Positions 2,838 through 6,168 of a stretch of 64,000 bases of DNA are shown piece after piece. Made by a program: the position numbers and the translations under genes. The notes beneath the pieces are model-generated. The model was given only the letters and a program-made list of their open reading frames with translations. It had not been told where the DNA came from and did no database searches. The first letter of the stretch is position 1, and each line of letters starts with the position of its first letter. The stretch lies in contig NC_043003.1 in assembly GCF_006345805.1 (NCBI RefSeq), positions 17,918,001 through 17,982,000 of the forward strand, given 5' to 3'. This DNA comes from Octopus sinensis. Taxonomy: Eukaryota.

Positions 2838-3466
2838 GGATCTTTACCTTTTGACCTACAGATTTTTTAAATAATTTTTTGTAACTAAACACTTTCAAAC
2901 TTTGGACCCTGGTAGAATGTGTCATATAAAACATATTTTACTCTTAGCATATTTGAGAAAAACTTATATTTCTGAAGTAATTTCATGTCAAAGTAGGCCT
3001 ATTTCGGTAATTTCAACCAATCAATGGCGTGTATTCAGCTGAATAAAATTACTGCCGTTGTTTGTCAACAAGAACTATTGGCGGTGTATTTTTCATTTGT
3101 CACTGTTATTTATGACATCATTTCTATGTTTATACTGGTTTTGGGGTTAGGGTTTCAGGGTCAGGGTTAGGGGGTTAGGGTTAGGGTTGTCATAAATAAC
3201 AGTGACAAACGAAAAATACACAGCTGGAAGTTCTTGTTGACAAACAACAGCAGTAATTTTATTCAGCTGAATACACGTCATTGATTGGTTGAAATTACTG
3301 AAATAGGCCTACTTTAATGTGAAATTACTTCATGAATATTAGTTTTTCTCAAAAATGCTAAGAGTAAAACATGTTTTATATGACACATTTTACCAGTGTC
3401 CGAAGTTGGAAAGTGCTTAGTTACAAAAATTACTTTTTAAATCTGTCGGTCAAAAGGTTAAGATAC
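2838..3466. mobile_element. Mutator-like (MULE) fold-back MITE with TTAGGG-like core
   Basis: About 280-bp inverted arms, 9-bp TSD CTGCACCTA (2829-2837 and 3467-3475), central GGTTAGGG repeats. Confidence 0.8.
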
Positions 3467-3881
3467 CTGCACCTATGCCTATTTCTTGATCTTAATTTAA
3501 CTGAAGGTATGTCATGTAGTGGTTTAGTTGTGGCGCTCATTATTGTTAGATCATGGGGCTGGTCAATTCTCTAACATGGTGGTTCATTGTGTTCTTGAGC
3601 AAGGACTTCCTTTCACATTACTTTAATCCACTCAGCTGAAAATGAGTCCAAAGAGCAATTGCTAGAGGGTATGGAGAGAGGGATTAACCTTGCAGCAATT
3701 GTTCTCTTATGAAGGGAATCTTTCATTCTCGGTTGCTTAAATTCTGTGGAGACTGGACTATGCTCCAGAGCCTAAGGGACCTGAAGGCTTAAAGCAAGCA
3801 ATTTTTTTGTTTTGTTTTTTTGTTACAGTTAAGGGAAACATTATTTATTTATTTATTTATCTATTTTTATTCACTTTTCAG

Positions 3882-3969
3882 TGTTTTGAAAGAGAAGGAG
3901 GATGAAGAACTGGAAAAAGTTTTGGAACTGAAGAGTGAACCTGTTAAGAAATCATCATGTTGCAGATGA
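3882..3969 (+). CDS. Large Rab GTPase, terminal coding exon with di-cysteine prenylation motif
   Basis: ttttcAG acceptor, then (C)VLKEKEDEELEKVLELKSEPVKKSSCCR*. The LKExED...KKSCCx tail resembles CRACR2A/Rab44 C-termini. First AATAAA is at 4075-4080. Confidence 0.88.
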
Positions 3970-4390
3970 TATCAAAGAGTGCCAGTTAAAAAGAAACTCA
4001 TTTAGTTATATATTCAAAGATTTATAATGGATTAAAAAAAAAATTTTAGATAAAGGAAAATCAACAGTCTTCTAAATAAACCAGCACCTGGGTTAGGAAA
4101 TGTAAATATGAAACCCATTCTGCATTTATTAAATAACTTTTATCAGTGCATATTACTGACAGAAATACTTTGCAAGCATTCATCCTTATTTATGGTTTTC
4201 TTAAAGACAAATAATGTGACTGATTATTAGCAAAAATCAAGTTGTTTAAAGAAACGTGGATACTGAATTTCTCTTTCTTTAAAATTGGAAAAAAAAAATG
4301 TATATAATACCATGTGTGTGTATATTTGAGTGCATGTGTGTATTAAGTGTCCCTAAATTTTAAGAATTCATTTTCCTAGAGGAGCTGTTT

Positions 4391-4743
4391 GGATCTGTTT
4401 GATTTGGCTCACAGATTTTTTTAAATTAATGTCTTTTGACTAAACAGTTTGAAATTTTGTATACTGGTGGAATGTCTCACACAGAACATGGTTTACTTTG
4501 ACCATTTTTGATAAAATTTGATATTTTAAAAGTTATTTTGTGTTAAAGTTGTCTTTGGGTAATTTCAACCAGTCAACAATGTGTATCCAGCTGAAGAAAG
4601 CTACTGCTGTTTGTGATAGTAATTGAAGAGGAACAACTTCTGGGTCATCTCTACTAAATGTCACCACCAGTATACGATGTCTCAATCTGTTTAGTTAAAA
4701 AAAAATTTAATTGAAAAATCTGTGCACAAACCTGAACAGATCC
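4391..4743. mobile_element. Related MULE-like MITE, degraded
   Basis: GGATCTGTT...AACAGATCC termini and internal similarity to the 2838 and 51151 elements. Confidence 0.6.
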
Positions 4744-5190
4744 GGCAGTTTCATATGCTGGAGCTTTTAAGTGGATTTCTTTTAATCAAGGGGAATAACT
4801 ATATTTGTTATGATGAAACGTTTTTGACAATGCTCAGAAATGAGAGTCCCTTATGCATTTCTGTATTGCATTTCTTATTATGATAAGCATTTAAAACTTA
4901 TGCAAATATTTACTCCTTCAATGAAAATGGCATCACAGAAGAAGCTGAGCATTTTATAAACCTGTCTTCCTACTATAAACAGCATTTCAGATAGAATTCA
5001 ACACTGCATTTTATTGGAGATGAACTTTGAGGACGAAAGAGAAAAGTCTATGACATTATCAGAATCTCATTAATTTTAATTAAAACAAAAAATTTTTATT
5101 CTTTATTCAATTTATTGATAAAAGTTTATGTTATTTTACGGAGATATACTTGCATAGCAAGTGACCTGATCTGAGATTGTGTGCTGGAAC

Positions 5191-5437
5191 GAAAACAATT
5201 GCAGTGTGGAAGGTGTTTATAAGCCATTTAAGAAACATGCAAAAACCGTTAAATTCACTTCAACATTTAAATTTAATTTGTCAAATGATACAGCACGGAG
5301 TTTTGTCAGTGAACAGGTCGCGATCTCAAAGCGGCGAAAATATTTTGGCAAATTAAATTTAAATGTTGAAGTGAATCTAACGGTTTTTGTGTGTTTCTTA
5401 AATGGCTTATAAACACCTTCCACACTGCAACTGTTTA
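5191..5437. repeat. Fold-back element, about 92-bp inverted arms around the G3:C8 hammerhead
   Basis: 5191-5283 is the near-perfect reverse complement of 5346-5437. Confidence 0.9.
5302..5352 (+). ncRNA. Minimal type I hammerhead ribozyme motif, G3:C8 core variant
   Basis: tttgtca-GTGAACA-g-gtcgc-gatctcaaa-gcggc-GAAA-ATAT-T-T-tggcaaa: 7-bp stem I, 5-bp stem II, palindromic AATATT stem III. Confidence 0.65.
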
Positions 5438-6168
5438 TATCATTTTAATATTTCAAAAATAGTATCATGAAAGATAATTGTAACTTTATATGTAGTTCTA
5501 TGTTTAATTATCATCAAACATTTTTTCTTTATCTTTTTCCCCTTTTTTCCTTTTTTTTTAAACAAATATTATTTCTTGACACTCATTGGGGTTTGTATTT
5601 TAGAAATATCCTTGATAACATATCAGATGTCAAAAACAAACTGGAATATTTCTATATATTTCTTCATTAATTTTTCTCTTATTTTCCTTTTGATCTCACC
5701 TCACAATATTTGTTGAAAAAAAAAAGGCAAAACAGAATCAAGATTGTGTTGTGTAATGTAAATTGGATGATGATAGTTTTTGTTCCAATGGAAACATTTA
5801 CCTGTCAACTAGAAATCTATACATGTAATATCCGTGTAAGCATGGATCATAAACTCTGTCTTTCATATAGTGTCAATCTATGATCCTTATACTCAGACAA
5901 CAATGTATCTTAATGTAGTTTATCAAAACTGAATGGTTATCTCACTCTTCAAGTTTCATGCCACTGCAATCTTCAGGTGAGAATGTTCATGCCTGAAATC
6001 CACAGCAGCGTGAAACTCAGATTGCAAAATAAACATTCAATTTTAATAAACCATATACTCTACAACATCGTCTCTCATTCATTTGACACAATTCATTATT
6101 CACATAATACATATGTGCATGTAGCTGCATATATATTACATACATATATATATATGCATACATGCATG

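What the first reader, a model, noticed from the sequence alone, without database searches (positions are those of the whole stretch)
5191..5437. G3:C8-swapped hammerhead at the centre of a fold-back, downstream of the Rab stop codon
Seen: GUGAACA (5309-5315) replaces CUGANGA, swapping positions 3 and 8 together while U4 G5 A6 A9 and G12 A13 A14 A15.1 U16.1 stay intact. Stem I is 7 bp, stem II is 5 bp (GUCGC/GCGGC), the palindrome is AAUAUU and cleavage is predicted after U5345. The sequence immediately after that site is duplicated in inverted orientation upstream (92-bp arms), so the inversion breakpoint coincides with the predicted cleavage site. Established: the G3:C8 double swap rescues activity in engineered hammerheads. 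Inference: a natural swapped-core ribozyme marking a PLE terminus. It is on the Rab sense strand about 1.3 kb after the stop and may lie in a long 3-prime UTR.
Basis: partly seen in the sequence, partly recalled or inferred. Interest (0 to 1): 0.8.

Follow-up and report, generated by a model that had tools for sequence, protein, structure and literature searches.

The report
Swapped-core hammerhead fixed in octopus retroelement
A jumping-gene family with more than 5,500 copies in this octopus genome carries a hammerhead RNA motif in which two paired core letters have traded places relative to its sister family; it likely still cuts itself weakly, but this is untested, and the copy behind the Rab gene is predicted to be folded shut.

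Summary
The motif is real and sits at 5302-5352. It is the minimal type I hammerhead in the pseudo-LTR of a Penelope-like element (PLE). I found the parent element (RT plus C-terminal GIY-YIG-type endonuclease).

G3:C8 is fixed: 5,567 of 6,114 exact matches, with no C3:G8 copy among them. The sister PLE family in the same genome has a homologous pseudo-LTR with C3:G8 (1,560 canonical-core matches against 3 controls). Metagenome relatives carry C3:G8 or U3:A8. So positions 3 and 8 covary between families, not within this one.

The fold-back is the ordinary inverted pseudo-LTR left by PLE integration, and its junctions are not enriched at the cut site (3 of 54, about 2.3 expected). In the Rab 3' UTR the 93-bp hairpin is predicted to abolish stem I, so this copy is probably silent.

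Cleavage is untested. My searches found only U3:A8 as a natural covariation in print, but three key papers were not held. This scan earlier noted G3:C8 in phages and protist PLEs (unchecked).

The parts
5136..5285 (-). Tailed pseudo-LTR copy, 5'-truncated (element positions 62-211). It lacks the hammerhead core and forms the upstream arm of the fold-back.
   Evidence: blastn of a natural copy (L083) against the window, 94.7% over 150 nt
5136..5192 (-). PLE 'tail' (element positions about 155-211), present on one arm only
   Evidence: 86 of 92 inverted pairs have exactly one tailed arm; tail-less arms end mostly at 152-155
5287..5436 (+). Tail-less pseudo-LTR copy (element positions 5-154), starting at the 3'-splice-site-like boundary and containing the hammerhead
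   Evidence: boundary and branch-point/pyrimidine/AG motif upstream in longer copies
5302..5352 (+). Minimal type I hammerhead motif: stem I 5302-5308/5346-5352, core 5309-5315, extra G 5316, stem II 5317-5321/5331-5335, GAAA 5336-5339, palindromic stem III half 5339-5344, U17 5345
   Evidence: sequence; both stems fold in the isolated motif, P 0.93-0.99
5309..5314 (+). Swapped core pair G3 (5309) : C8 (5314)
   Evidence: 5,567 of 6,114 family matches; C3:G8 in the sister family
5402..5436 (+). First 11 codons of the PLE RT-endonuclease ORF
   Evidence: in the full-length copy L255 this ATG runs in frame into the RT ORF
3882..3969 (+). Last coding exon of a Rab-like GTPase gene (ends CCR-stop); its 3' UTR reaches at least 5176
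   Evidence: translation; two upstream exons hit Pfam Ras weakly, E 0.06 and 0.16, below the curated cut-off; contig 3881-5176 in run X1

Best explanation
The motif is the pseudo-LTR hammerhead of a high-copy Penelope-like retrotransposon family whose core pair is G3:C8 where the sister family has C3:G8, and it likely remains a weak self-cleaving RNA that would need a dimer or protein help. Shown: PLE parentage, fixation of G3:C8 in the family, homology to C3:G8 pseudo-LTRs in the same genome, and the one-tailed inverted-pair architecture. Inferred: the swap arose once on the branch to this family and was kept because positions 3 and 8 must pair. Inferred: the fold-back was made during integration, when two cDNAs primed at the element's two internal start sites (about 154 and 211) on opposite target strands were joined at variable points. 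Predicted: in the Rab transcript the 93-bp arm helix captures the 3' strand of stem I and no partner ribozyme lies in cis, so this copy does not cut the mRNA and acts at most as a double-stranded RNA hairpin.
For: Parent: a 722-aa RT ORF with a C-terminal GIY-YIG-type region lies upstream of the motif. Full-length copies have the motif in both pseudo-LTRs (L255, L234) and the pseudo-LTR ATG in frame with RT. Homologues hit RVT_1 (8 of 40) and GIY-YIG (3 of 40). Fixation: 5,567 of 6,114; all 16 motif hits with a pairable 3:8 in 31 ORF-linked regions were G3:C8. Homology to canonical motifs: 1,560 canonical-core matches sharing the stem II frame, against 3 controls. Their pseudo-LTRs align with this one even 3' of the ribozyme: 5 of 5 tested scored above all 200 shuffles, 67-75% identity. 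The sister ORF is the nearest relative, 100/100 support. Stems change by compensation between the families (stem II G-C to A-U; stem I U-A to C-G). A scan with 3, 8 and 9 free on 71 metagenome loci gave 9 hits, all Watson-Crick at 3:8 (8 C:G, 1 U:A), and 0 in reversed controls. Engineered C3G/G8C partly rescues a PLE hammerhead while single mutants are dead (PMC11167929). Fold-back: 56 of 94 tail-anchored copies have an inverted partner (16 of the 94 are one nested clone); the two arms share subfamily letters (8.6% discordant against 44% for random pairs). Silent copy: stem I probability 0.0 in window context, 0.6-0.99 without the arm.
Against: No cleavage assay. No pile-up of genomic 5' ends at the cut site, and about two-thirds of copies keep the whole motif (169 of 257 start at position 12 or earlier; this sample is partly anchored on the motif and the intron), so uncleaved RNA is the main template. 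Stem III is weak (palindrome duplex -0.2 kcal/mol), G3 is predicted to wobble-pair with U17, and the cofold MFE is not the hammerhead dimer. The palindrome extends to 10 nt over A13 and A14, which would trap core bases (sequence). No covariation within the family. Subfamily-level constraint is only suggestive: 1 of 42 structured columns against 10 of 73 loop/flank columns carry a frequent non-CpG variant, P = 0.054. Young sister copies have A9 changed to C, which suggests relaxed catalytic constraint in this clade. C8-to-G changes that break the pair are unexpectedly common (194). Ribozyme mutants did not affect PLE insertion in vitro (PMC11167929).
Confidence: 0.68

Rival explanations
1. The motif descends from a hammerhead but is catalytically dead; the two changes drifted in separately in a lineage that no longer needs cleavage, and stems I and II are kept for another job (RT binding, promoter, splicing).
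For: Mutant ribozymes do not impair PLE insertion in vitro and no RNA ends were seen at the cut in Anolis (PMC11167929). Naiad PLEs thrive without canonical hammerheads (PMC8557442). A9C in the sister family and in L296. No cut-site footprint. C8-to-G is a frequent change here, so position 8 may be mutable.
Against: Of the 11 core positions only 3 and 8 differ from canonical, and they differ as a Watson-Crick pair through two transversions, while the flanks have fallen to 67-75% identity. Three different Watson-Crick identities and no mismatch were seen among 9 metagenome hits plus the two genomic families.
Confidence: 0.27
2. This copy cleaves the Rab 3' UTR, and the fold-back was created at the cleavage site, so the ribozyme regulates the host mRNA or defines the inversion.
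For: The motif is on the Rab sense strand, the UTR reaches into the element, all pairs are kept in this copy, and the arm ends two bases from the cut.
Against: Stem I probability 0.0 with the arm present; no second ribozyme in cis; junctions not enriched at the cut; contigs in two probable RNA runs also cover 5382-5549 and 5412-6100, beyond the site (contigs show neither strand nor a single transcript).
Confidence: 0.04
3. The 247-nt fold-back is a MITE or a microRNA precursor and the hammerhead likeness in its loop is chance.
For: 93-bp near-perfect hairpin, z = -23; Rfam plant MIR models hit it far below their gathering scores.
Against: Arms and junctions differ from copy to copy; most of the hairpin is two copies of one pseudo-LTR; the motif is tied to an RT ORF and is homologous to canonical hammerheads.
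Confidence: 0.01

Closest known systems
Minimal type I hammerheads (min-HHR) of metazoan Penelope-like elements (Cervera and de la Pena 2014, PMC4209133)
   Same: Location in both pseudo-LTRs; no stable stem III, only a palindrome; extra nucleotide between 9 and 10.1; G10.1-C11.1; intron-like 3' end just upstream of helix I; many solo copies and pairs on opposite strands.
   Different: Core pair G3:C8; the natural covariant reported there is U3:A8. U17 rather than the C17 seen in 23 of 30 canonical relatives here.
Anolis Poseidon element PAc (Frangieh et al. 2024, PMC11167929)
   Same: Two 3' ends defining a tail; ORF start inside the pseudo-LTR; AT-rich targets; uncleaved RNA as the main template. 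Its engineered C3G/G8C mutant has the core that this family carries naturally.
   Different: PAc is C3:G8 by nature, its ORF starts inside stem II, and it belongs to Penelope/Poseidon. Here the ATG is about 56 nt downstream of the cut and the endonuclease has a CX3CxxC linker.
Neptune/Nematis-type C-terminal-endonuclease PLEs (Craig et al. 2021, PMC8557442)
   Same: RT followed by a CX2-5CxxC linker and a GIY-YIG-type region with C, C, H, H; inverted 5'-truncated partner; one-sided tail; frequent (TA)n flanks. The short spacer after CxxC resembles the Nematis rows of their Fig. S2.
   Different: Clade not assigned by a tree with named references; the tail is about 57 nt rather than 30-40.
Natural hammerhead core variants (Perreault et al. 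2011, PMC3088659)
   Same: Compensatory change at the 3:8 pair in nature.
   Different: They report U3:A8; G3:C8 does not appear in the passages read.

Membership tests
Penelope-like element (C-terminal endonuclease type) | Single ORF with RT followed by a GIY-YIG endonuclease | tested here: met
   [quoted passage not shown] The ORF itself hits no Pfam family; 8 of 40 aligned homologues hit RVT_1 and 3 of 40 GIY-YIG.
Penelope-like element (C-terminal endonuclease type) | Pseudo-LTRs on both sides that overlap the ORF start | tested here: met
   L255 and L234; ATG in frame with RT
Penelope-like element (C-terminal endonuclease type) | Inverted 5'-truncated partner and one-sided tail | tested here: met
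   86 of 92 pairs have one tailed arm
Penelope-like element (C-terminal endonuclease type) | Spliceosomal intron in the pseudo-LTR | tested here: inconclusive
   Branch-point, pyrimidine tract and AG directly before the common 5' boundary, 487 exact matches; donor site not identified; no spliced joint seen
Nematis or Neptune clade | CX2-5CxxC linker and placement with reference elements | tested here: inconclusive
   Linker present and Nematis-like in spacing; no tree with named references
Minimal type I hammerhead ribozyme | U4 G5 A6, A9, G12 A13 A14, A15.1:U16.1, H17 | tested here: met
   commonest letter at 90-100% in 120 copies
Minimal type I hammerhead ribozyme | C3 and G8 as in the consensus | tested here: not met
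   G3 and C8; 0 C3:G8 among 6,114 matches. It is filed as a variant, not a consensus member.
Minimal type I hammerhead ribozyme | Watson-Crick complementarity between positions 3 and 8 | tested here: met
   G:C here, C:G and U:A in relatives
Minimal type I hammerhead ribozyme | Stems I and II form, with compensatory changes | tested here: met
   Isolated motif and free pseudo-LTR fold both stems; compensatory pairs against the sister family. Stem I is not formed in the window's fold-back context.
Minimal type I hammerhead ribozyme | Palindromic stem III half that supports a dimer | tested here: inconclusive
   Perfect 6-nt palindrome, least variable part (1.3%), but duplex only -0.2 kcal/mol and cofold MFE is another structure
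Minimal type I hammerhead ribozyme | Self-cleavage 3' of N17 | not testable with these tools
   Needs an assay; no genomic footprint; only contigs, no raw reads, were offered
Rfam hammerhead families | Score at or above the gathering threshold | tested here: not met
   No hammerhead hit

The most novel reading that the evidence does not exclude
An animal retrotransposon lineage replaced the near-invariant C3:G8 pair of its hammerhead with G3:C8, kept self-cleavage, and then amplified to thousands of copies. U17 may have made the swap possible by avoiding a G3:C17 mispair. The clade would then hold working C:G, U:A and G:C cores side by side, and CUGANGA-based surveys would be missing whole ribozyme families, including in PLEs now called hammerhead-free.
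Probability: 0.5. Interest if true: 0.7.

Novelty: new variant of a known kind. Interest (0 to 1): 0.55.

Why it matters
The 3:8 pair was established from a crystal structure and engineered swaps, and in the papers I could read only U3:A8 is recorded as its natural covariant. Here G3:C8 is fixed in a large animal PLE family whose canonical sister lies in the same genome, which gives a matched natural pair for assays and for asking whether PLE hammerheads are under selection for cleavage at all, an open question in PMC8557442 and PMC11167929. Searches that start from CUGANGA, such as those described in PMC8557442, cannot find this motif. For the Rab gene the result is ordinary: a retroelement insertion in a 3' UTR.

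Tried and rejected
Breakpoint equals cut site: the first 30 loci gave three junctions like the window's, but that query contained the junction itself; without those loci there was no enrichment. Covariation within the family: none. G3:G8 copies as an ancestral intermediate lineage: rejected, since they occur on all subfamily backgrounds, are no older (4.4% against 4.2% divergence) and usually affect one arm of a pair. Five G8 copies and five deletion copies among ORF-linked loci look like segmental duplicates and were dropped before the mutation spectrum. One nested clone was collapsed or dropped. The tandem array on C2 held only a pseudo-LTR fragment inside another repeat, no RT. Arms copied from two different templates: mostly not. 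MITE and microRNA readings rejected (see rivals). Family search with PF26215 was not possible. First metagenome scan found nothing; the alignment scan did. A distant-relative query in the own genome returned only the two known families among its top hits. 62 of 71 metagenome loci gave no motif hit; many are short or cut. No RNA holder is on record as RNA; runs X1, X5, X10, X22 are guessed RNA, and contigs cannot show ends or strand. The state of positions 3 and 8 in other species could not be read: no variant row at those places among the 40 shown, 25 rows hidden. Solved-structure search gave only weak RT hits. Splice donor not found. Papers not held: Lunse et al. 2017, Przybilski and Hammann 2007, Nelson and Uhlenbeck 2008.

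Full report
Observation. The motif is as described: stem I 5302-5308/5346-5352, G3 at 5309, C8 at 5314, stem II 5317-5321/5331-5335, GAAA 5336-5339, palindrome 5339-5344, U17 at 5345, plus an unpaired G at 5316. The arms are 93 nt and 95% complementary. Rfam has no hammerhead hit. The host gene is Rab-like: two exons hit Pfam Ras weakly, below cut-off, and the last exon ends in CCR-stop at 3969. The genome is an octopus: a sister-family protein labelled Octopus vulgaris by its source matches it at up to 99%.

The repeat. The stretch belongs to a roughly 210-nt repeat. A 20-mer over the core with positions 3 and 8 free has 6,114 exact matches and 0 controls; a tail 23-mer has 4,096. The window holds two pieces head to head: a minus-strand copy at 5136-5285 (positions 62-211) and a plus-strand copy at 5287-5436 (positions 5-154). 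Positions are numbered on a natural copy from L083.

The parent. [quoted passage not shown] L255 and L234 have the repeat at both ends, and in L255 the ATG inside the repeat runs in frame into the RT. So the repeat is the pseudo-LTR of a PLE. The endonuclease linker is CX3CxxC with a short spacer, like the Nematis rows in the supplement of PMC8557442; the clade was not tested by a tree. The intron is inferred; no donor was found.

The fold-back. 56 of 94 tail-anchored copies have an inverted partner (I fetched 94 of the 100 places listed, of 4,096; 16 of the 94 are one nested clone). In 86 of 92 pairs exactly one arm has the tail, tail-less arms end mostly at 152-155, and the arms share subfamily letters (8.6% discordant against 44% for random pairs) (a few loci overlap, so some pairs are counted twice). 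This matches the inverted partner and one-sided tail described for PLEs (PMC8557442, passages) and the two internal RT start sites shown for the Anolis element (PMC11167929, parts 1-2 of 4). Junctions are scattered: 3 of 54 truncated ends lie within 2 nt of the cut, with a mean of 2.33 per window.

The swap inside the family. Of 6,114 matches, 5,567 are G3:C8, 189 differ at 3 only, 342 at 8 only and 16 at both (12 expected, P = 0.16); 4 of the 16 are A:U and none is C:G. In 120 copies chosen without anchoring on the core, 94 are G3:C8. Frequent non-CpG variants fall in 1 of 42 structured columns (a change that keeps a wobble pair) and 10 of 73 loop and flank columns (P = 0.054): suggestive only.

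The swap between families. The nearest ORF relative (56% identity, 100/100 support) is a second family in this genome. Its pseudo-LTR holds the same layout with C3:G8, and compensatory changes in stems I and II. A pattern with the canonical core and the shared stem II frame finds 1,560 matches against 3 controls. These pseudo-LTRs are homologous to the window's beyond the ribozyme: 5 of 5 beat all 200 shuffles, at 67-75% identity. Among 71 metagenome loci with related ORFs, a scan with 3, 8 and 9 free gave 9 hits, all Watson-Crick at 3:8, and 0 in reversed controls; four lie 104-398 nt after a full RT-endonuclease match (three C:G, one U:A). The simplest reading is one swap on the branch to this family. 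The tree is midpoint-rooted and the node joining the outgroups is open, so direction rests on the sister and on C:G being the commonest state outside.

Mechanism. By established hammerhead chemistry (recalled), residue 8 contributes through its 2'-hydroxyl and is held by the 3:8 pair, so a swap can keep activity. In a PLE hammerhead, single mutants were dead and the double mutant partly active, cleavage needed the protein, and cleavage was not needed for insertion (PMC11167929). Minimal PLE hammerheads cut slowly and as dimers (PMC4209133, parts 1-2 of 4; PMC6765202, passages and part of section 11). The free pseudo-LTR folds stems I and II (P 0.84-0.99). Against strong activity: the palindrome duplex is -0.2 kcal/mol, G3 wobble-pairs with U17 in the MFE, and the cofold MFE is not the dimer. 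This family has U17 in 117 of 120 copies, the canonical relatives C17 in 23 of 30. PMC3884650 (passages) states that a G3-C8 variant is weaker in the C17 context than with G17 (data not shown there), which fits the idea that U17 eased the swap; this is inference. I put cleavage by the family motif at about 0.55.

This copy. A 1,844-nt contig of run X1 lies on 3881-5176; its depth pattern also fits the preceding exon, so it is probably spliced mRNA with a long 3' UTR. Run X10, labelled as another organism, also spans the left junction. The runs are guessed RNA. With the upstream arm present stem I has probability 0.0, and no second ribozyme lies in cis, so the mRNA is unlikely to be cut. Across the family, five A-to-G or T-to-C sites are at 5-44% in two guessed-RNA runs and at 0.1% or less in a large run of unstated kind, a hint of A-to-I editing of such hairpins; the runs are from different organisms, so this is not shown.

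Novelty. Natural covariation at 3:8 is reported as U3:A8 (PMC3088659, passages; PMC4209133). Searches for G3-C8, C3G, G8C and GUGANCA with hammerhead, for octopus with hammerhead and for terminons gave no natural G3:C8. I saw only passages of PMC7151607 and PMC6257768 and the abstract of bioRxiv 2026.07.22.740005. Lunse et al. 2017, which catalogues PLE hammerhead variants, was not held, nor its supplements, so the novelty claim is provisional. This scan has earlier, unchecked notes of G3:C8 in phage and protist PLE hammerheads; none on this sequence or genome. What this case adds is scale and a canonical sister in the same genome.

Verdict. A real new variant of a known kind: interest 0.55. 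The swapped core deserves an assay; the fold-back and the Rab context are ordinary.

Noticed in passing
genome-wide, element position 32 (window 5314): C8-to-G changes number 194 of 6,114, more than C8-to-A and C8-to-T together (148), whereas C-to-G is the rarest change at other non-CpG sites (0.5% against 2.7% C-to-T). They recur on all subfamily backgrounds. Unexplained.
   Followed up: partly
L177:1593, 1632, 1633, 1639, 1640 (window about 5361, 5400, 5401, 5407, 5408): A-to-G and T-to-C differences enriched in two guessed-RNA runs over a large run of unstated kind, in U-A contexts; possible A-to-I editing of the inverted pairs on both strands.
   Followed up: partly
L265:4646 and about 25 other sister-family loci; L296:2497: ORF-linked copies of the sister family have C at position 9 (C3:G8:C9), another core variant; a metagenome relative has U3:A8 with C9.
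   Followed up: partly
L063, L065, L113 and 13 more: One inverted pair with an identical junction and flanks occurs 16 times in 94, so it is being carried by another, larger repeat.
   Followed up: no
L201:4435-8380: A 4-kb insertion with terminal inverted repeats and an 8-bp duplication interrupts the PLE 3' region, itself holding further insertions.
   Followed up: no
L171, minus strand 2-1129: A different RT/GIY-YIG-type ORF end runs directly into this family's intron-like region, a possible chimera or nested PLE.
   Followed up: no
L291:4265 and 4629: Two U3:A8 minimal hammerheads 364 nt apart, from another repeat family.
   Followed up: no
G000:C2:2027093-2038634 (L197-L198): A tandem array with 2.5-3.2 kb units, each carrying the same tail-less pseudo-LTR fragment.
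   Followed up: partly
window 2840-3470 and 4391-4743: Two further fold-back repeats of another family, one in the last Rab intron with telomere-like TTAGGG repeats at its centre (about 3140-3190) and one in the 3' UTR.
   Followed up: no
element 5' boundary, several loci: Copies lacking the intron-like end are often preceded by GAG (17 of 46) where intron-bearing copies have CAG (28 of 35), hinting at a short spliced first exon.
   Followed up: partly
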